A stretch of DNA of 49,345 bases from Verrucomicrobiota bacterium (GTDB taxonomy: Bacteria; Verrucomicrobiota; Verrucomicrobiia; Limisphaerales; UBA9464): positions 1-49,345 of the forward strand of contig JANYCC010000163.1 in assembly GCA_025360495.1 (NCBI GenBank), in the 5' to 3' direction. Under the pieces are notes generated by a model. That model did not search any database and was not told where the DNA came from. It saw only the letters and a program-made list of their open reading frames with translations. How positions within the stretch are numbered: the stretch's first letter is position 1; every line of letters begins with the position of its first letter. The position numbers and the translations under genes were made by a program. Below are positions 6,483-39,040 of the stretch, piece by piece.

Positions 6483-6747
6483 AACCACGGATGACACGGA
6501 TGACACGGATGACACGGATGACACGGATGACACGGATGACACGGATGAGAGGAAGAAAACGAACCGGCCAATCCATGAGGCAGGCAAGGATGTGCCCACG
6601 AAACTCACGAAACACACGAAAGGGAAGGCGCGCTTCCGGCCCCTGGGCATTCGTGCGTTTCGTGTGTTTCGTGGGCAGCCCTTTCTTTCCATGCCCATCT
6701 GTAATCCGTGGTTGGTTTCCTTCGTTCCCTTTGCGTTCTTTCGCGGC
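6483..6747. repeat. Nested inverted-repeat cassette built from 9-nt periodic units
   Basis: (CACGGATGA)x7 at 6486-6548 pairs with atctgtaatccgtggtt (about 6697-6713). Inner 28-bp arms at 6593-6620 and 6650-6677 (CACGAAACA units). Tail ctttgcgttctttcgcggc ends at 6747. Confidence 0.9.
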
Positions 6748-6768: not shown

Positions 6769-8010
6769 TCAGGCCGTCCCCAGCGCCAGCCCGATCAGGC
6801 CGCCGCCCAGCACCAGCCAGGCGGAGTTCACTTTCCAACGGAACAGGAGCAGGGCCGAAACCAACGCCAACAGCACCGTCGGCACGTCCATGATCGCCCC
6901 GACCGCAAGCCGGACCGTGACCACTGCCATCAGGCCCATTGACGCCGCATTCACGCCGTCCAAGAGCGCACCGGTGGCGGGCCACGAACGCAATTTGGGG
7001 ATCAATGTCCCACTCGCCGCCACGAGTACGAAAGCCGGCAGGAAAATCCCCACGGTCGCCGCCGCCGCCGCCGGGACTCCGCCCAGCACATAGCCAATGA
7101 ACGTCGCCGTTGTGAAGACCGGGCCCGGCGTGAACTGCCCCACGGCGACCGCATCGAGCAGTTGGTTCTCGGTCAACCAATGGCGGTGTTCCACCAGGTC
7201 GGTCCGCAGGAACGCCAGGAGCACATAACCACTCCCATATAATACCGACCCGATTTTGAGGAAGACACCGAACAGGGCCGCGGTGCTGAACGGTGCCATT
7301 CCCGCCACCGCAACCCCTGCACCCGTCGCGCCCGCCACCGGGGCGGAGAGCGCCGTCCCCCACGGCGACAGGCCGATCACGGGTACGCGGCCTTGGATCC
7401 CACCACCGCCCGGTCGCCCCAAGACCCGCAACAGGGCCACCAGTCCCGCCGCCAGCAGTACGGGGAGTTCGGAGATCCCAGCGAAACTCAGCGCCGTCGC
7501 GATCAGCCCGATCCCGGCGAGCCAACGGGTGCGCAGTGCGGTCCGTCCCAGCTTCCAGACGGCCTGTCCCACCACCGCGATGATCACCGGTTTGACGCCG
7601 TATAGCAGGCCTTGGGCGGCCGGCAGTTTTCCAAAACGGACATAAGCCCAGCCCACGCCGATCACGATCAGGGTCGCCGGCAGGATGAAACACAGGCCGG
7701 CGACCAAGAGCCCCGCCCACCCGGCGCGTCGATGCCCGAGCAGCAGCGCCATCTCGGTGGAATTGGGGCCGGGAATGAGGTTGGTGGCGCCCCAGAGATC
7801 GAGGAATTCGGCGTGCGTGACCCAACCCCGGCGCCTCACCATCTCCTCTTCCATCATCGCCACATGGACGGCCGGCCCCCCGAAAGTCGTGGAACCGAGC
7901 CGGAGGAACACGGCGGCCACCTCGCGCAGCCGGCGGTTTCGTTCCGGGCCACTCCTTCCGTTCCAGCTCGGGTCGGGCTGACTGGACCGGGGCGGTTCGA
8001 CCGTGGGCAT
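6769..8010 (-). CDS. chrA: Chromate efflux transporter (CHR family, long form)
   Basis: FLRLGSTTFGGPAVH, NLIPGPNSTE; second half FLKIGSVLYGSGYVL, GQFTPGP. Start at 8010 is approximate. Confidence 0.92.
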   Translation of the reverse strand: MPTVEPPRSSQPDPSWNGRSGPERNRRLREVAAVFLRLGSTTFGGPAVHVAMMEEEMVRRRGWVTHAEFLDLWGATNLIPGPNSTEMALLLGHRRAGWAGLLVAGLCFILPATLIVIGVGWAYVRFGKLPAAQGLLYGVKPVIIAVVGQAVWKLGRTALRTRWLAGIGLIATALSFAGISELPVLLAAGLVALLRVLGRPGGGGIQGRVPVIGLSPWGTALSAPVAGATGAGVAVAGMAPFSTAALFGVFLKIGSVLYGSGYVLLAFLRTDLVEHRHWLTENQLLDAVAVGQFTPGPVFTTATFIGYVLGGVPAAAAATVGIFLPAFVLVAASGTLIPKLRSWPATGALLDGVNAASMGLMAVVTVRLAVGAIMDVPTVLLALVSALLLFRWKVNSAWLVLGGGLIGLALGTA

Positions 8011-8218
8011 CCCCGGGACTCTGCGCGGCTGCGGTTTCGCCGGCAATCCGATCGATGGGTCCGGTAGGGCGAGTTTCCACCCGAGCCGCGTTGGTTTGGC
8101 GGCGGTGTGCATGGAAGGGGCATTCAAGATCGGCTCGGGTGGAACCTCGCCCCACCGGCCAATGCCTGTCTCCGTCATTGCCGCCGCGCCCTCCCATCGT
8201 TCAGCCTCGCCGTCACGG

Positions 8219-9490: not shown

Positions 9491-10252
9491 ATGATCCCCA
9501 GCGAGGCAGCCGCACTGCTCGACCGGTTCCAACGCGGCGAGGTGACGCGTGACGAGGCGGTCCGCGCCTTCCAAGCCGCGCCGATGGTGGATCTCGGATT
9601 TGCCGTCGTCGACACGCACCGGGCATTGCGGAAGGGCTTTCCCGAGGTGATTTTCGGGGCCGGCAAAACCCCCGCCCAAGTCAACGCCATCGCCGCGAAA
9701 ATCATCGCCGCCGATGGACGCGTGCTCGTCACCCGGGTCACCGCCGATCACGCCCGGCATTTCCGTCGGAAGTTCCGTCGGGCGGGATATCACGAGGCGG
9801 CCCGGTGCCTGACCTTCGAGACCCAACCGTTGCCGCGCCGACCGGGGTATATCGCCGTGGTGGCCGCGGGGACCTCCGATCTGCCGGTGGCGGAGGAGGC
9901 CGCCGTCACCGCGGAATTCATGGGCAACGAGGTGCGGCGCATTTCCGACGTCGGGGTGGCGGGATTGCACCGCCTCTTGCAACGCCTGCCCGATCTGCAG
10001 GCCGCCAACGTCATCATCGTGGTGGCGGGCATGGAGGCCGCCCTGCCCTCGGTGATCGGCGGCCTGGTCGGCAAACCGCTGATCGGGGTGCCCACCAGCG
10101 TGGGTTATGGATCCCATTTCGGCGGGGTGACCGCCCTGCTCGGGATGCTCAATTCGTGCGCCAGCGGCCTGACGGTGGTGAACATCGACAATGGATTCGG
10201 AGCCGGTTATGCGGCGAGTGGCATCAATGCCCTGGCCGCCGGCAACCCGTGA
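9491..10252 (+). CDS. larB: Nickel-pincer cofactor biosynthesis protein LarB (PurE-like)
   Basis: DTHRALRKGFPEVIFGAGKT, AGTSDLPVAEEA, DVGVAGLHRL, PTSVGYG, NSCASGLTVVNIDNGFGAG. Confidence 0.93.
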   Translation: MIPSEAAALLDRFQRGEVTRDEAVRAFQAAPMVDLGFAVVDTHRALRKGFPEVIFGAGKTPAQVNAIAAKIIAADGRVLVTRVTADHARHFRRKFRRAGYHEAARCLTFETQPLPRRPGYIAVVAAGTSDLPVAEEAAVTAEFMGNEVRRISDVGVAGLHRLLQRLPDLQAANVIIVVAGMEAALPSVIGGLVGKPLIGVPTSVGYGSHFGGVTALLGMLNSCASGLTVVNIDNGFGAGYAASGINALAAGNP

Positions 10253-10272
10253 ATCCCCGTCCTCCCCGACCC

Positions 10273-11685
10273 ATGCGAACCCTTTACCTCGACATTTTTT
10301 CCGGGCTCAGCGGCGACATGTTTCTCGGTGCGCTGATCGATCTGGGCGCCGATTTGCCGAAGCTCGAACGCGAACTCCGCCGACTGCCGCTGGACGGTTA
10401 CCATCTCCACGCCGCCCGCGCCTCCAAAGCCGCGATCGAAGGGGTGAAGTTTGAGGTGCATCTCGCCGATACGGAGTGCGGACACGGGCACGGGCATGGG
10501 CACGATCACGATCACGATCACGATCATGGGCACGGGCACGATCACGCACCCGTAGCCGCCGAGGTGCCGAGGCGGACCACGGAAGGATCCCAACCGGTCC
10601 CGCCTCAGGACTTCGTCGGCCCCGGGAAAGCAGGGGATCCGCCTCAGGACTTCGTCGGCTACGGGAAAAAAGGAGTTCCGCCTCATCATTACGTCGGCCC
10701 CGGCCACCGGGATCATGCCGCCATCCGCCGGTTGATCCTGGAGAGCAGCCTCGGTGATTGGGTGAAGGAAAAATCGCTGGCCGTGTTCGGACGGATCGCG
10801 GTGGCGGAGGGCAAGATCCACGGGGTGCCGCCCGATCGGGTGCATTTCCACGAGGTCGGCGCCGTGGATTCCATCGTCGACATTGTCGGTGCGTGCATCG
10901 CGCTGGATCTGTTGGGAAGGCCGCGGGTGTTGAGCGGAAGGGTGGTCGAGGGGACGGGTTTCGTGAAATGTGCCCACGGACGGATGCCTCTGCCCGCACC
11001 GGCGACCCTGGAGATCCTCGGCGCCCGCGGAGTGGGCGTGACCCAATGCGAGGAACCGCACGAATTGGTCACCCCGACGGGTGCGGCGTTGCTGGCGGAA
11101 TTCGCGGAAACATTCGGCCCGATGCGCTCGGTGGTCGGGGCACGGGTCGGTTATGGACTTGGAACCCGGGACCACCAGACCCGGCCCAACGTGGTGCGCG
11201 CGCTCCTTTGGGAGGAGGAAGCCGCGGCGGAAGCGGGGCACGATTGGGAGACCGACACCGTGGCGGTGCTGGAGACCAATGTGGACGACCTGAACCCGGA
11301 GATCCTCGGGCACGTGTTGGACAAGGCGCTCCGTTGGGGTGCGCTCGACGCCTTTCACACGCCGGTGCAGATGAAAAAACAACGACCCGGCGTGTTGCTC
11401 ACGATCCTCTGCAGCCCGGGTGAAGCGGATCGATTCACCGAATTGCTGCTGACCGAGACCAGCGCGTTCGGGGTGAGACGGACCCTGGCCGAACGGCGCA
11501 AGCTCCGTCGCGAGGTGGTGGAGGTGAAGACCGCGTTCGGGAGTGTTAAAGTGAAATTGGGGCGGCTCGACGGCCGGGTGGTGCAGGCGGCGCCGGAGTT
11601 TGAGTCGTGCCGGTCGGTGGCGGTGCAGGCGGGGGTGACCTTGAAGGAGGTCTATGCGGCGGCGGCCCGGGCGGTGGAAGAATGA
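10273..11685 (+). CDS. larC: Nickel-pincer cofactor nickel insertase LarC
   Basis: LYLDIFSGLSGDMFLGAL, His-rich tract, VHFHEVGAVDSIVDI, ELVTPTGAA, LETNVDD, MKKQRPG, PEFESC. Confidence 0.94.
   Translation: MRTLYLDIFSGLSGDMFLGALIDLGADLPKLERELRRLPLDGYHLHAARASKAAIEGVKFEVHLADTECGHGHGHGHDHDHDHDHGHGHDHAPVAAEVPRRTTEGSQPVPPQDFVGPGKAGDPPQDFVGYGKKGVPPHHYVGPGHRDHAAIRRLILESSLGDWVKEKSLAVFGRIAVAEGKIHGVPPDRVHFHEVGAVDSIVDIVGACIALDLLGRPRVLSGRVVEGTGFVKCAHGRMPLPAPATLEILGARGVGVTQCEEPHELVTPTGAALLAEFAETFGPMRSVVGARVGYGLGTRDHQTRPNVVRALLWEEEAAAEAGHDWETDTVAVLETNVDDLNPEILGHVLDKALRWGALDAFHTPVQMKKQRPGVLLTILCSPGEADRFTELLLTETSAFGVRRTLAERRKLRREVVEVKTAFGSVKVKLGRLDGRVVQAAPEFESCRSVAVQAGVTLKEVYAAAARAVEE
10549..10704. repeat. 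GTAG-type REP-like cluster inserted in frame within larC
   Basis: One forward copy cccgtagccgccgaggtgccgaggcgga at 10549, then three reverse copies at 10594, 10633 and 10672 (e.g. gggatccgcctcaggacttcgtcggctacggg). Matches the intergenic copies at 36841-37040. Confidence 0.88.
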
Positions 11686-17340: not shown

Positions 17341-17630
17341 CGGCCACGGCGCATTCCCATGCGCCACTACGGGCCACTCGCCCCGCGAGGAACGAGTGGG
17401 GGAGGGGTCGGCCGGTGGCGAGGTCCTCGTACTCGTGCTTCTCGTCCTCGGCCCTCGTCCCCTCGATCGGCCCTGTGCTTCGAGGATGAGACGCGAGGAT
17501 GAGACGCGAGGACGAGACGCGAGGACGATTAGACGGCTTGCGGGGCCTCCTCTTCCCGGCCCTCCTCTTTCGTGCCCCAGGAAGACTCGGAGACGGGACC
17601 AGCCACGGCGCATTCCCATGCGCCGCCACT
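17341..17630. repeat. Composite intergenic repeat cassette (hairpin E, arm F, 13-mer array, arm G, hairpin E)
   Basis: GGCGCAT-TCCC-ATGCGCC at 17348 and 17607; ctcgccccgcgaggaacgag at 17377; (cgaggaYgagacg)x3+ at 17481-17528; gggcctcctct...caggaaga at 17543. Modules are shared with 43520-43661. Confidence 0.85.
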
Positions 17631-36840: not shown

Positions 36841-37040
36841 CCCGTAGCCGACGAGGTACGAGGCGGATCCCCGTAGCCGACGAGGCACGAGGCGGATCCC
36901 CGTAGCCGACGAGGTTCGAGGTGGACCCCCATGCCGGCCGGAATGATGGGTCCAGGTCCTTTTTTGTGATCTTTTGCGTTCTTTTGCGGCCACCCAGTCG
37001 GGGGCCTGCCGGGGTCCGCCTCGTACCTCGTCGGCCACGG
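36841..37040. repeat. GTAG-type REP-like cluster (3 forward, 1 inverted) with an embedded 10-mer array
   Basis: GTAGCCGACGAGG..CGAGGCGGA with GTAG at 36844, 36873 and 36902 (29-nt period); inverted copy at 37011-37040; ttttgtgatc ttttgcgttc ttttgcggcc at 36962-36991. Confidence 0.92.
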
Positions 37041-37097
37041 CCTGGCAACGGCTGCGTGACATTCACCCGGGATCCGTCAATCCTGTTCTTCTTCCAC

Positions 37098-38033
37098 ATG
37101 CGCGCCCTGGCCGTTCTTCTGCCGTGTCTCTGGTTGATCTTCCAAATCCAAGGCCCCGCCGCGGCAGCGTCACCACCCCACCCCGTCCGCGTGCTGGTGT
37201 GGGATGAGCAACAGCCCCAACAACGGATGGCCTATTCGAATTTCCTCGGCCAGGAAATCGCCGCCTTCCTCCGCACCCAACCCGGCCTCGAAGTCCACAC
37301 CGCCGCCCTGAACGACCCCGCCCAAGGCCTCGATCCGGCGGTGCTCGACCAGACCGACGTGCTCATCTGGTGGGGCCATGTGCGCAACAAGGAAATCACC
37401 CCGGACACCGGACGCGCCCTGGTCCGGCGCATCCAAGCCGGGCAACTGTCGCTCATCGCCCTGCACTCCGCTCACTGGTCGACCCCGTTCGTTGAGGCGA
37501 TGAATGAGCGGGCCCGGCAGGACGCCCGGTTCGCCCTGCCGGAATCCGACCGGGCGACCGCGCTGTTGGTGGAGACCAACCGGTATCCCAGCCGCTACAC
37601 CCCGCCGCGATCCGATGACCTCCGCACCCCGTGCACCTGGTATCGCAAGCCCGTGGAAGGCCCGGTTGAGATCACGTTGGCGTTGCCTAATTGTTGTTTC
37701 CCCGCCTACCGCCCCGACGCCATGCCCAGCCAGATGCGCGTCCTCCGCCCCGAACATCCCATCGCCCGCGGACTGCCGCCGACCTTCATCATTCCGCGCA
37801 CGGAAATGTATAATGAACCCTTCCATGTCCCGCCTCCGGACGAGGTCGTCTTCGAGGAGCGCTGGGCCACAGGCGAATGGTTCCGTAGCGGAAGTGTCTG
37901 GGCCCTGGGCCGGGGTCGGGTCTTCTATTTCCGACCGGGCCACGAGCTGTACCCGGTCTTCAAGGAGGCGACCTGCCTGAAGATCCTCGATAACGCCGTG
38001 CGCTGGCTTGCCGCCGAACAGTCCCGGCGCTGA
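37098..38033 (+). CDS. ThuA-domain (trehalose-utilisation-like) exported protein
   Basis: Signal peptide; VRVLVWDE, DVLIWWGH, LHSAHWS, EMYNEPF, GRVFYFRPGHE.YP. Confidence 0.85.
   Translation: MRALAVLLPCLWLIFQIQGPAAAASPPHPVRVLVWDEQQPQQRMAYSNFLGQEIAAFLRTQPGLEVHTAALNDPAQGLDPAVLDQTDVLIWWGHVRNKEITPDTGRALVRRIQAGQLSLIALHSAHWSTPFVEAMNERARQDARFALPESDRATALLVETNRYPSRYTPPRSDDLRTPCTWYRKPVEGPVEITLALPNCCFPAYRPDAMPSQMRVLRPEHPIARGLPPTFIIPRTEMYNEPFHVPPPDEVVFEERWATGEWFRSGSVWALGRGRVFYFRPGHELYPVFKEATCLKILDNAVRWLAAEQSRR

Positions 38034-38910: not shown

Positions 38911-39040
<130 letters not shown>

What the first reader, a model, noticed from the sequence alone, without database searches (positions are those of the whole stretch)
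10549..10704. REP-like repeat cluster has invaded larC in frame, next to its His-rich segment
Seen: directly after the His tract, larC carries 156 bp (52 codons; PVAAEVPRR...PPQDFVGPG..PPQDFVGYG..PPHHYVGPG). It consists of one GTAG-forward repeat and three reverse copies. This is the same 1+3 architecture and nearly the same sequence as the intergenic cluster at 36841-37040 read in reverse (gggatccgcctc-aggactt-cgtcggctacggg vs gggatccgcctc-gtacct-cgtcggctacggg). The intergenic period is 29 nt; in larC it is 39 nt, which preserves the frame. The third copy now encodes HH. Known: REPs are normally extragenic, and Rickettsia palindromic elements are a precedent for in-frame insertion. Inference: selfish repeat DNA is being turned into protein sequence in a tolerant metal-binding linker.
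Basis: partly seen in the sequence, partly recalled or inferred. Interest (0 to 1): 0.78.

Follow-up and report, generated by a model that had tools for sequence, protein, structure and literature searches.

The report
Mobile repeat cluster inside nickel-insertion gene
A cluster of four copies of a small selfish DNA repeat, normally found between genes, sits in frame inside the nickel-insertion gene larC of a Verrucomicrobiota bacterium and adds 52 amino acids to a variable surface loop; the event looks real, but events of this kind have been described before.

Summary
larC (window 10273-11682, 470 aa) carries a 156-nt, stop-free, in-frame segment (10549-10704, aa 93-144). It consists of one forward and three reverse units of a GTAG-tagged REP family.

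- **Family size:** a strict pattern finds 210 units in 108 clusters in this genome, against 1 in a reversed-genome control.
- **Match to the family:** reverse unit 2 is 32/32 identical to two units on contig C380.
- **Location of clusters:** by a codon-usage model of my own, only 3 of 108 clusters lie in coding sequence.
- **Relatives:** none of 39 relatives' LarC, none of 38 metagenome LarC loci and no other database protein has the segment. The two closest relatives lack both the insert and the repeat family.
- **Transposase:** a RAYT-like HUH tyrosine transposase gene on contig C158 is flanked by the same repeats. So are its orthologues in 15 of the 19 closest loci found in other genomes.
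- **Insertion site:** it is the hypervariable His-rich loop, directly before the residue that aligns with H70 of the solved Moorella LarC.

In-frame intragenic GTAG REPs are already documented (Di Nocera 2013), including in a verrucomicrobium. This is therefore a new member of a known kind.

Not shown: translation or activity of this LarC, and the exact number of middle copies, which rests on a short-read assembly.

The parts
9491..10249 (+). larB-like gene (AIR carboxylase family) immediately upstream of larC
   Evidence: ORF; Pfam AIRC 2.3e-14
10273..11682 (+). larC, 470 aa, intact open frame (stop codon 11683-11685)
   Evidence: Pfam Ni_insertion 1.3e-132 over residues 4-461. NCBIfam LarC1 199.7 bits and LarC2 143.8 bits, both over cut-off. 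Coordinates.
10480..10548 (+). His-rich tract (GHGHGHGHDHDHDHDHGHGHDHA, aa 70-92) encoded by 6-nt tandem repeats
   Evidence: (TRF period 6, 10479-10546)
10549..10704 (+). REP cluster insert, 156 nt = 52 codons (aa 93-144), no stop; P+G make up 20 of 52 residues
   Evidence: absent from relatives' LarC
10549..10578 (+). Forward REP unit (GTAG at 10552; centre GGTGCC, a unique +1-nt variant of subfamily A), read as PVAAEVPRRT
   Evidence: nhmmer E=0.048
10597..10627 (-). Reverse REP unit 1 (subfamily B; GTAG mutated), 27/31 identical to unit 2. With the forward unit it forms a doublet 48 nt apart.
   Evidence: the doublet folds at -22.6 kcal/mol, z -2.8
10634..10666 (-). Reverse REP unit 2 (subfamily B, centre AGTCCT, GTAG intact), read as DPPQDFVGYG
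   Evidence: 32/32 identical to C380:7589-7620 and 7662-7693; strict pattern hit at 10639
10675..10705 (-). Reverse REP unit 3, degenerate (22/31 identical to unit 2), read as PPHHYVGPG; abuts conserved HRDH of LarC
36841..37041 (.). Intergenic REP cluster of the same family: 3 forward subfamily-A units with 29-nt period (36841, 36870, 36899) and 1 reverse unit (37013-37041), upstream of a ThuA-domain gene
   Evidence: The Pfam ThuA match starts at residue 90 of ORF 36921-38030, so the cluster lies before the likely start.

Best explanation
A cluster of GTAG-type REP units entered the His-rich loop-coding part of larC in the lineage of this genome. The cluster is a heterodimeric doublet (subfamily A forward, subfamily B reverse) extended by two further tandem reverse units.

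The family is the non-autonomous partner of a RAYT-like HUH tyrosine transposase encoded on contig C158. That enzyme, or recombination or slippage between repeat copies, is the inferred source of the insertion and of the 39-nt tandem expansion.

Five of the six reading frames of each unit are open, and the site is a surface loop whose length varies freely among relatives. A version of 156 nt (a multiple of three, without stops) could therefore persist, and it is now read as a Pro/Gly-rich 52-aa extension of the loop.

- **Shown:** the repeat identity, the family and its distribution, the absence of the insert from relatives, the REP-flanked RAYT-like gene, the intact frame, and the loop position relative to the solved LarC.
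- **Inferred:** the mechanism of arrival, translation of the segment, retained LarC activity, and neutrality of the insert.
For: **Repeat identity**
- 210 strict hits against 1 control, in 108 clusters.
- The larC units match the pattern at 10552(+) and 10639(-).
- Unit 2 is 32/32 identical to two C380 units.
- A(+)/B-or-C(-) doublets about 45 nt apart are the commonest arrangement, 30 of 108 clusters. The larC forward unit and rev1 are 48 nt apart.
- A C380 doublet folds at -29.9 kcal/mol, z -6.3. The larC doublet folds at -22.6 kcal/mol, z -2.8.

**Extragenic habit**
- 3 of 108 clusters lie in coding-like frames by my codon model.
- 42 of 108 have no spanning open frame at all.

**Insert absent elsewhere**
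- 40 of 41 genomes (G000 included) have a LarC match; G007, 83% complete, has none.
- In the 39 relatives with a match, none has a hit spanning query residues 115-130, and every hit is split at the insert.
- 21 LarCs extracted from relatives lack the segment. The 8 relatives' loci my pattern failed to extract have gaps of 0-63 nt between the two halves.
- G016 (85% identical) and G010 (83%) have 0 REP hits. The REP-rich G013 (188 hits) and G009 (59 hits) also lack the insert.
- 38 metagenome LarC loci reach at most 72% identity. The REP pattern (relaxed form) found no unit in any of them, apart from one loose hit in L155, and the 8 loops I could extract (8 of 38) lack REP peptides.
- A search with the 52-aa peptide among longer proteins returned only this protein, out of 9 candidates.

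**Transposase**
- C158:776-1342(-) matches NCBIfam REP_Tyr_transpos at 54.5 bits. It has an HUH motif (PDHLHLL) and a Tyr motif (FYILANPVRA), REPs on both sides, and a stop codon supplied by a REP GTAG.
- Orthologues (64-67% identical) in G022 and G028 are also REP-flanked.
- In a scan of genome contigs, 15 of the 19 closest loci have the REP within 1.5 kb, against 3 of the other 61, with 0 control hits.

**Tolerant site and intact gene**
- Loop length varies widely among relatives, and four of them carry a 100-190 aa insert at this site.
- The segment ends directly before H145, which aligns with chain residue H88 of PDB 12bi. That is H70 of the solvent-exposed His patch of Moorella LarC (PMC13510736, passages read).
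- G000 LarC keeps every column that is invariant across 20 LarCs.
- dN/dS outside the loop is 0.11-0.12 against three relatives.
- LarA-like, LarE and LarB genes are present, and larC is single-copy.

**Recurrence**
- The G028 RAYT orthologue itself carries a 44-aa in-frame REP cluster.
- Two other G000 genes have single in-frame units in variable linkers.
Against: - **Assembly:** the genome is a 482-contig short-read assembly. Public contigs of 4 runs (1 study, possibly the source samples) break inside the repeats, and none spans the whole insert. The number of middle units therefore rests on the assembler.
- **Single unit is a weak palindrome:** it folds no better than shuffles, z -0.15 to +0.66. 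Only doublets fold well.
- **RAYT-like protein is below thresholds:** it scores under the NCBIfam cut-off (54.5 against 80 bits) and has no Pfam Y1_Tnp hit at E<=0.01.
- **No insertion signature:** no target-site signature could be read, because the junctions lie in hypervariable His-coding DNA.
- **Long branch:** dS to the nearest relatives is 1.2-1.6. The branch on which the event happened is long, and dN/dS says nothing about the time since insertion.
- **No direct evidence** that the segment is translated or that LarC works.
- **Approximate coding calls:** the coding/non-coding calls for the 108 clusters come from a home-made codon model, not a gene finder. One further cluster (C145) is borderline.
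Confidence: 0.85

Rival explanations
1. Assembly artefact: the REP units were threaded into larC, or their number mis-resolved, by a short-read assembler following repeated k-mers.
For: - The genome has 482 contigs.
- Unit 2 shares a 32-mer with other loci.
- Public k-mer contigs break at 10473, 10641-10666 and 10692, and none spans the insert.
- In runs X3/X4 the bin 10682-10705 has no cover.
Against: - A 131-nt piece, aligned over 10555-10641, extends 44 nt upstream into the skipped His-tract repeat. It joins the forward unit to rev1 and the start of rev2 in all 4 runs.
- A 1.8-1.9-kb piece starts inside the unique rev3 variant (10692-10713) and runs on into larC.
- No joint skips the insert.
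- The result is in frame and stop-free.
- These runs come from one study and may be the source samples, so they are not independent.
Confidence: 0.07
2. The insertion is real but has inactivated LarC, or is in the process of doing so: a young pseudogene that still has an open frame.
For: - The insert ends directly beside the residue aligned to H70 of the His patch that the Moorella study links to nickel binding.
- Unit 2 is identical to genomic copies, which fits a recent event.
- dN/dS cannot resolve recent relaxation of constraint.
Against: - The 470-codon frame is intact.
- All columns invariant in 20 LarCs are kept.
- larC is the only copy, while LarA-like, LarB and LarE genes are intact.
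- Relatives tolerate 100-190 aa at the same site.
- Units 1 and 3 and the forward unit have diverged by substitutions only, and the one length change still leaves the total a multiple of three.
Confidence: 0.12
3. The repeat-derived peptide has been co-opted. It lengthens or tunes the nickel-binding loop (the new His-His in unit 3), or the DNA/RNA hairpin regulates larC expression.
For: - Unit 3 differs from unit 2 in 4 of the 9 nt that code QDF to HHY, all amino-acid changing, next to a His tract.
- The insert can fold at -33.7 kcal/mol, z -2.5.
Against: - The centre of the unit is the part that varies among subfamilies anyway.
- The insert is found in one genome only, so nothing can be said about conservation.
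- There is no Rfam match.
- Three units are too few for a selection test.
Confidence: 0.06
4. The segment is native LarC sequence, and the genomic repeats derive from it or resemble it by chance.
For: None found.
Against: - 210 copies against 1 control.
- The family occurs in other genera and families whose LarC lacks the segment.
- The units flank a RAYT-like gene in several genomes.
- Only this protein carries the peptide.
Confidence: 0.01

Closest known systems
Intragenic GTAG-tagged REPs (Di Nocera, De Gregorio and Rocco 2013, BMC Genomics, PMC3733652; passages read)
   Same: - Short GTAG-tagged units that are mostly extragenic, often in head-to-head dimers or clusters, and linked to RAYT genes.
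- A minority lie wholly inside ORFs in frame.
- Dimers or groups encode 20-30 aa, and clusters of 43-82 aa are reported.
- The authors suggest tolerance in flexible linkers or loops.
- The most intragenic GTAG cases were in Opitutus terrae, a verrucomicrobium.
- REP termini can supply the TAG stop of a flanking ORF, as seen here at the C158 gene.
   Different: - The host gene here is larC. The passages I read name mainly DNA repair, replication and RNA-related genes as hosts. The paper's list of target ORFs is a supplement that I could not open, so larC may or may not be in it.
- I did not compare this family's consensus with the paper's GTAG-1 to GTAG-24 families, because the figure is not held.
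- The single unit here has only a 5-bp stem.
Rickettsia palindromic elements (RPE; Ogata et al. 2000, as cited in PMC3733652 and PMC3184786; original not read)
   Same: Selfish palindromic repeats inserted in frame into otherwise conserved protein genes, adding a peptide segment without breaking the gene.
   Different: - RPE-1 is a single, longer element, different in sequence and host phylum (recalled, not tested).
- Here the insert is an array of four units of about 30 nt from a RAYT-linked GTAG family.
REPIN / BIME doublets with RAYT (Nunvar 2010 and Bertels and Rainey 2011, as cited in PMC3733652; PMC8049555 seen in a search listing only)
   Same: - Inverted doublets with a short spacer that fold into a long hairpin.
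- Two unit types alternate in orientation.
- The cognate HUH Y1 transposase gene is flanked by the units.
- Distribution among related genomes is patchy.
   Different: - The RAYT-like protein is below the NCBIfam equivalog cut-off.
- Tandem same-orientation arrays with periods of 25-43 nt are frequent here.
- Mobility was not tested.
LarC of Moorella thermoacetica (PDB 12bi-12bl; PMC13510736, abstract and passages read) and of Lactiplantibacillus plantarum
   Same: The same two-domain nickel-insertion enzyme (E 9e-87 to chain 12bi_D), with a His-rich region in LarC1 before the helix that starts at the aligned H70.
   Different: - The loop between the aligned blocks is about 10 residues in the Moorella chain (76-87). 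Here it is about 85 residues, of which 52 are repeat-derived.
- No activity data exist for this protein.

Membership tests
GTAG-type REP / REPIN family | Short unit (20-40 nt) tagged by GTAG at one end | tested here: met
   In 108 aligned units, G/T/A/G are each present in 102-107 of 108, followed by a near-invariant 20-nt core. The larC forward unit and rev2 keep the GTAG; rev1 and rev3 have lost it.
GTAG-type REP / REPIN family | Unit is an imperfect palindrome (stem-loop) | tested here: inconclusive
   Single units form only a 5-bp stem (CCGCC/GGCGG) and fold no better than shuffles, z -0.15, -0.67 and +0.66. Doublets fold strongly, z -6.3 and -2.8.
GTAG-type REP / REPIN family | High copy number, predominantly extragenic | tested here: met
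   210 units against 1 control in 108 clusters. 105 of 108 clusters are not in a coding-like frame by my codon model. This is an approximate method.
GTAG-type REP / REPIN family | Inverted doublets or mosaic clusters of alternating unit types | tested here: met
   '+-' is the commonest architecture, 30 of 108 clusters. A(+) is paired with B or C(-) about 45 nt apart.
GTAG-type REP / REPIN family | Cognate RAYT gene flanked by the units | tested here: met
   The C158 gene is flanked at 708/754 and at 1389/1506/1623/1657. The REP is present near 15 of the 19 closest orthologue loci in other genomes, with 0 control hits.
GTAG-type REP / REPIN family | Mobilisation by the RAYT | not testable with these tools
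   Only indirect evidence: patchy distribution among relatives (0 to 188 hits per genome) and presence/absence at larC.
RAYT (NCBIfam NF047646 REP_Tyr_transpos, equivalog) | Score at or above the curated cut-off of 80 bits | tested here: not met
   The C158 protein scores 54.5 bits, and its G022 and G028 orthologues 56.5 and 52.1. There is no Pfam Y1_Tnp hit at E<=0.01. I therefore call it RAYT-like, not a member of the equivalog.
RAYT (NCBIfam NF047646 REP_Tyr_transpos, equivalog) | HUH motif and catalytic Tyr motif | tested here: met
   PDHLHL and Y.LANP are invariant in the three orthologues. That these are the catalytic motifs is recalled knowledge of the HUH Y1 family.
LarC (nickel-pincer cofactor nickel insertion protein) | LarC1 and LarC2 domains over family thresholds | tested here: met
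   Pfam Ni_insertion 442.9 bits. TIGR00299 199.7 bits (cut-off 90) and NF052512 143.8 bits (cut-off 50). PDB 12bi E 9e-87.
LarC (nickel-pincer cofactor nickel insertion protein) | CTP-dependent nickel insertion activity | not testable with these tools
   Context only: larB is adjacent, and LarA-like and LarE genes are present elsewhere in the genome.
Rickettsia palindromic elements (RPE) | Sequence membership in an RPE family | not tested
   No RPE sequence was on hand. The resemblance is in behaviour only (in-frame insertion).

The most novel reading that the evidence does not exclude
The repeat-derived segment is not merely tolerated but is being recruited. It forms a Pro/Gly-rich tether next to the nickel-binding His patch of LarC, and its third unit has acquired His-His. 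This would make it a caught-in-the-act case of selfish REP DNA extending a metal-binding loop. The same REP family also contributes peptides to other proteins of this order, including its own transposase in G028.
Probability: 0.06. Interest if true: 0.6.

Novelty: new member of a known kind. Interest (0 to 1): 0.3.

Why it matters
This is a clean, well-bounded example of repeat DNA becoming coding sequence.
- Filled and empty sites can be compared across 39 relatives.
- The donor family and its likely transposase are identified.
- A cryo-EM structure now defines the insertion site, beside the proposed nickel site of LarC.

That makes it a convenient test case for how much insertion an enzyme's metal-binding loop can absorb. 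It also warns annotators that Pro/Gly-rich 'linkers' in Verrucomicrobiota proteins can be REP arrays.

It does not open a new category. Intragenic in-frame REPs were catalogued in 2013.

Tried and rejected
- **Relaxed repeat pattern** (2+1 mismatches): 381 hits but 157 in the control. Too loose, so it was dropped for genome counts.
- **GC3 thresholds for coding calls:** they could not separate a frame from its antisense shadow. A first codon model had the same fault. The retrained model was used.
- **My early note that all intragenic reverse units share one frame was wrong.** The kinase reads another frame.
- **Four long open frames spanning clusters** (C145, C52, C237, C183): Pfam domains start only downstream of the REPs. 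**C313** had no Pfam hit at all, so it stays unclassified on the codon model alone. None of the five was counted as intragenic, and C145 stays borderline.
- **Y1_Tnp hits on C476 and C325**: no REPs were found on those contigs, so they were not taken as the cognate enzyme.
- **Junction alignment for a target-site duplication:** uninformative in His-coding DNA.
- **Rfam on 10000-11000:** no match.
- **Exact 30-mer from larC in metagenome contigs:** 0 hits. The LarC protein scan there found nothing above 72% identity, so no same-species allele with or without the insert was available.
- **RNA runs:** no RNA holder was listed for the stretch, so expression was not examined.
- **Contig depth:** the 131-nt piece is lower than its flanks. 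The tool warns that contig depth cannot rank parts of a gene, so this was not interpreted.
Disorder of the insert is inferred from composition only.
- **Supplement of PMC3733652** listing REP-bearing ORFs could not be opened. It may already list comparable hosts.
Full report
**The observation**

The window carries larB (9491-10249) followed by larC (10273-11682, 470 aa). larC matches Pfam Ni_insertion at 1.3e-132, and both NCBIfam LarC1 and LarC2 models above their cut-offs.

The repeat finder reports three direct 39-nt copies at 10600, 10639 and 10678 (100, 85, 67% identity). It also reports an inverted arm at 10549-10576 that pairs with each of them (86, 78, 70%). Tandem Repeats Finder gives period 39 in larC (score 138) and period 29 in the intergenic array at 36841-36930 (score 152). 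Relative to reverse unit 2, unit 1 is 27/31 identical and unit 3 is 22/31. The forward unit equals the intergenic unit apart from a 1-nt insertion and 4 mismatches.

**The repeat is a genome-wide family with subfamilies**

- The 29-mer from 36841 recurs 7 times exactly and 137 times with up to 5 mismatches in the 5.8-Mb, 482-contig, 64% G+C genome.
- Aligned copies show a near-invariant core that begins with GTAG.
- A pattern that fixes the two halves and frees the centre finds 210 units, against 1 in the reversed genome. They fall into 108 clusters.
- The centre defines subfamilies: A (GGTAC 111, GGCAC 13, GGTGC 8), B (AGTCAT 25, AGTCCT 10) and C (CGTGAG 9, CGTAAG 8).
- The commonest architecture is a '+-' doublet (30 of 108 clusters). 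It is usually an A unit facing a B or C unit about 45 nt away. Same-orientation arrays have periods from 25 to 43 nt.
- Single units are poor hairpins (z about 0), but doublets fold strongly. A C380 doublet gives -29.9 kcal/mol, z -6.3.

**The larC units belong to this family**

The larC forward unit is an A-like unit with a unique extra base. The reverse units are subfamily B. Unit 2 is 32/32 identical to two units on contig C380, whose cluster has a comparable layout: forward A-type units followed by reverse B units. The forward unit and rev1 lie 48 nt apart and fold together (-22.6 kcal/mol, z -2.8).

That cluster is 3 forward plus 1 reverse of subfamily A.

One result weighs against an easy call. 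A profile built from A units alone scores the larC forward unit only at E=0.048 and a reverse unit at E=5.7. The centre-free pattern and the exact 32-mer carry the identification.

**The repeat is normally extragenic**

With a codon-usage model trained on this genome, only 3 of 108 clusters sit in a frame that looks coding on both sides:
- larC;
- a single unit in a 1547-aa Ser/Thr kinase-WD40 protein (C202);
- a single unit in a 455-aa Gate-domain protein (C176).

In both other cases G000 has extra residues in a variable linker relative to its closest orthologues.

Forty-two clusters have no spanning open frame at all. Of five long spanning frames checked, four (C145, C52, C237, C183) have Pfam domains only downstream of the repeats. 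C313 has no Pfam hit, so it rests on the codon model alone. C145 is borderline. These calls are approximate, because no gene finder was available.

Five of the six frames of each unit type are open. Openness alone is therefore cheap. The constraint on an insert is its length modulo three.

**The insert is absent everywhere else I could look**

- LarC was found in 40 of 41 genomes (G000 included). G007, at 83% completeness, had no match.
- In every relative the match splits at the insert, and no hit spans query residues 115-130.
- In the two closest relatives (G016 85%, G010 83% identical) the halves are 6 and 0 nt apart. The DNA alignment places the extra 156 nt between the His tract and the conserved HRDH.
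- I extracted 21 relatives' LarCs and none has the segment. The 8 loci my pattern missed have gaps of 0-63 nt between the halves.
- 38 LarC loci from metagenome contigs reach at most 72% identity. The relaxed REP pattern found no unit in any of them, apart from one loose two-mismatch hit in L155. The 8 loops I could extract (8 of 38) lack REP peptides.
- A search of the large protein collection with the 52-aa peptide, among longer proteins, returned only this protein out of 9 candidates.
- The family is patchy. G000 has 177 hits with the exact pattern, G013 188, G028 93, G009 59, G007 24, G022 24, G021 15. G016, G010 and 20 other genomes have none.
- REP-rich G013 and G009 still lack the larC insert.

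**A cognate transposase**

The NCBIfam REP-associated tyrosine transposase model finds six places in G000, none above its 80-bit cut-off. One of them is C158:776-1342 on the minus strand (54.5 bits). It has A units on both sides, at 708/754 and at 1389/1506/1623/1657. Its TAG stop is the GTAG of a unit. Its HUH and Tyr motifs are invariant in orthologues from G022 and G028 (64-67% identical), which are flanked by the same repeats.

A scan of one genome per species found 285 relatives, of which 80 were kept. The strict repeat pattern lies within 1.5 kb of 15 of the 19 closest loci and of 3 of the other 61, with no control hits. The record titles place these loci in Verrucomicrobiota, with names such as Verrucomicrobiia, Limisphaerales and Pedosphaera.

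I call the protein RAYT-like. It fails the equivalog cut-off and has no Pfam Y1_Tnp hit at E<=0.01.

The G028 orthologue itself contains a 44-aa in-frame cluster of these units. In-frame capture therefore recurs in this order.

**Where the insert sits in the enzyme**

A full-length LarC structure is in the PDB (12bi, Moorella thermoacetica; E 9e-87). HMMER aligns query 1-58 to chain 19-76 and query 144-467 to chain 87-407.

Our H145, the first residue after the insert, aligns with chain H88. That is H70 of the solvent-exposed His patch at the LarC1-LarC1 interface, which the authors propose as the nickel site. All alanine substitutions they report there lowered activity except H72A (PMC13510736, abstract and passages read).

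In relatives this loop varies from about 20 to about 45 residues. Four of them carry a 100-190 aa insert at the same place. The site clearly accepts insertions.

Several findings argue that the gene is still in use, though none proves it:
- G000 LarC keeps all columns invariant among 20 LarCs.
- dN/dS outside the loop is 0.11-0.12.
- larC is single-copy.
- LarA-like and LarE genes are present.

**Assembly**

Public k-mer contigs of four runs hold the stretch. The runs come from one study and may be the source samples, so they are not independent.
- A 131-nt piece, aligned over 10555-10641, extends 44 nt upstream into the skipped His-tract repeat. It links the forward unit to rev1 and the start of rev2.
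- A 1.8-1.9-kb piece starts in the unique rev3 variant and continues into larC.
- No joint skips the insert.
- No single piece spans the whole insert.
- The shared 32-mer of unit 2 is a branch point.

The presence of REP units inside larC is well supported. The exact number of middle units is not.

**Mechanism and comparison**

The best reading is that a RAYT-linked GTAG REP doublet entered the loop-coding DNA and its reverse unit was then amplified in tandem, or that a ready-made cluster was copied in by recombination. Selection then kept only a length that preserves the frame. The arrival mechanism is inferred. No target signature is readable.

This matches what Di Nocera and colleagues described in 2013. 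They reported GTAG REPs wholly inside ORFs in several species, with the most GTAG cases in Opitutus terrae. More than half were dimers or groups encoding 20-30 aa, and clusters of 43-82 aa occurred. They suggested tolerance in flexible linkers, and noted REP termini that supply TAG stops (PMC3733652, passages read). Delihas's 2011 review lists further in-frame repeat fusions (PMC3184786, passages read).

The finding is therefore a new member of a known kind. It is made somewhat more useful by the solved structure of the host enzyme and by the clear filled and empty sites.

Noticed in passing
L007, L025, L028, L030 (LarC of G028, G026, G038, G029), at the position of window 10549: Four relatives carry a conserved insert of about 100-190 aa in the same LarC loop (GPHGGPLV...ELSVFETNVPPRFRLYF...LEATDELPEPHEF), flanked by further His-rich runs. 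It looks like a folded domain. In L025 no Pfam family covers it.
   Followed up: partly
L046:792-1496 (G028:C50): The RAYT-like orthologue of G028 contains a 44-aa in-frame cluster (reverse-forward-reverse) of the same REP family that flanks it. The element has been inserted into its own presumed transposase gene.
   Followed up: partly
G000 C202:12703-12726 (L033) and C176:4357-4380 (L034): Single REP units lie in frame in a Ser/Thr kinase-WD40 protein (read SASSRRRLQ, after an ASASAS hexamer-repeat run) and in a Gate-domain protein (read PPPQVVGH). Both are in linkers where G000 is longer than its orthologues.
   Followed up: partly
G000 C365:15321-16105 (L047); window 8065-8155: There is a second, unrelated GTAG repeat family (TAGGGCGAGG, then 3 nt, then CCCGAGCC-like), with 186 hits against 2 in the control. 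It flanks another RAYT-like gene on C365 (78.4 bits, just under the cut-off). One doublet lies in the window, upstream of the UxaE-like gene.
   Followed up: partly
L044 (G000 C158) around 776-780: The stop codon of the RAYT-like gene is the TAG inside the GTAG of the adjacent REP unit.
   Followed up: yes
L035:548-700 (G000 C380): Truncated A units (GTAGCCG directly joined to AGGTACGAGGCGG, lacking 3 nt) are paired with full B units in a doublet repeated with a 73-nt period.
   Followed up: no
L021 (LarC of G023), same loop: Another relative has a different, non-His insert of about 40 aa (…STTPPPKSSASIIQFRTTNKPPSEF…) in the loop. Its origin was not examined.
   Followed up: no
window 6486-6548, 17481-17525, 38912-39039: Several other short perfect or near-perfect tandem repeats occur in the window: 9 nt x 7, 13 nt x 3.5, and 7-nt arrays.
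   Followed up: no
window 10511-10641 in runs X1-X4: The short contig that crosses the left junction has about half the word depth of the flanking larC contigs in X1 and X2 (4.5 against 9.9 and 8.0). It could reflect hairpin or G+C bias, or a mixed population. It cannot be interpreted from contigs.
   Followed up: no
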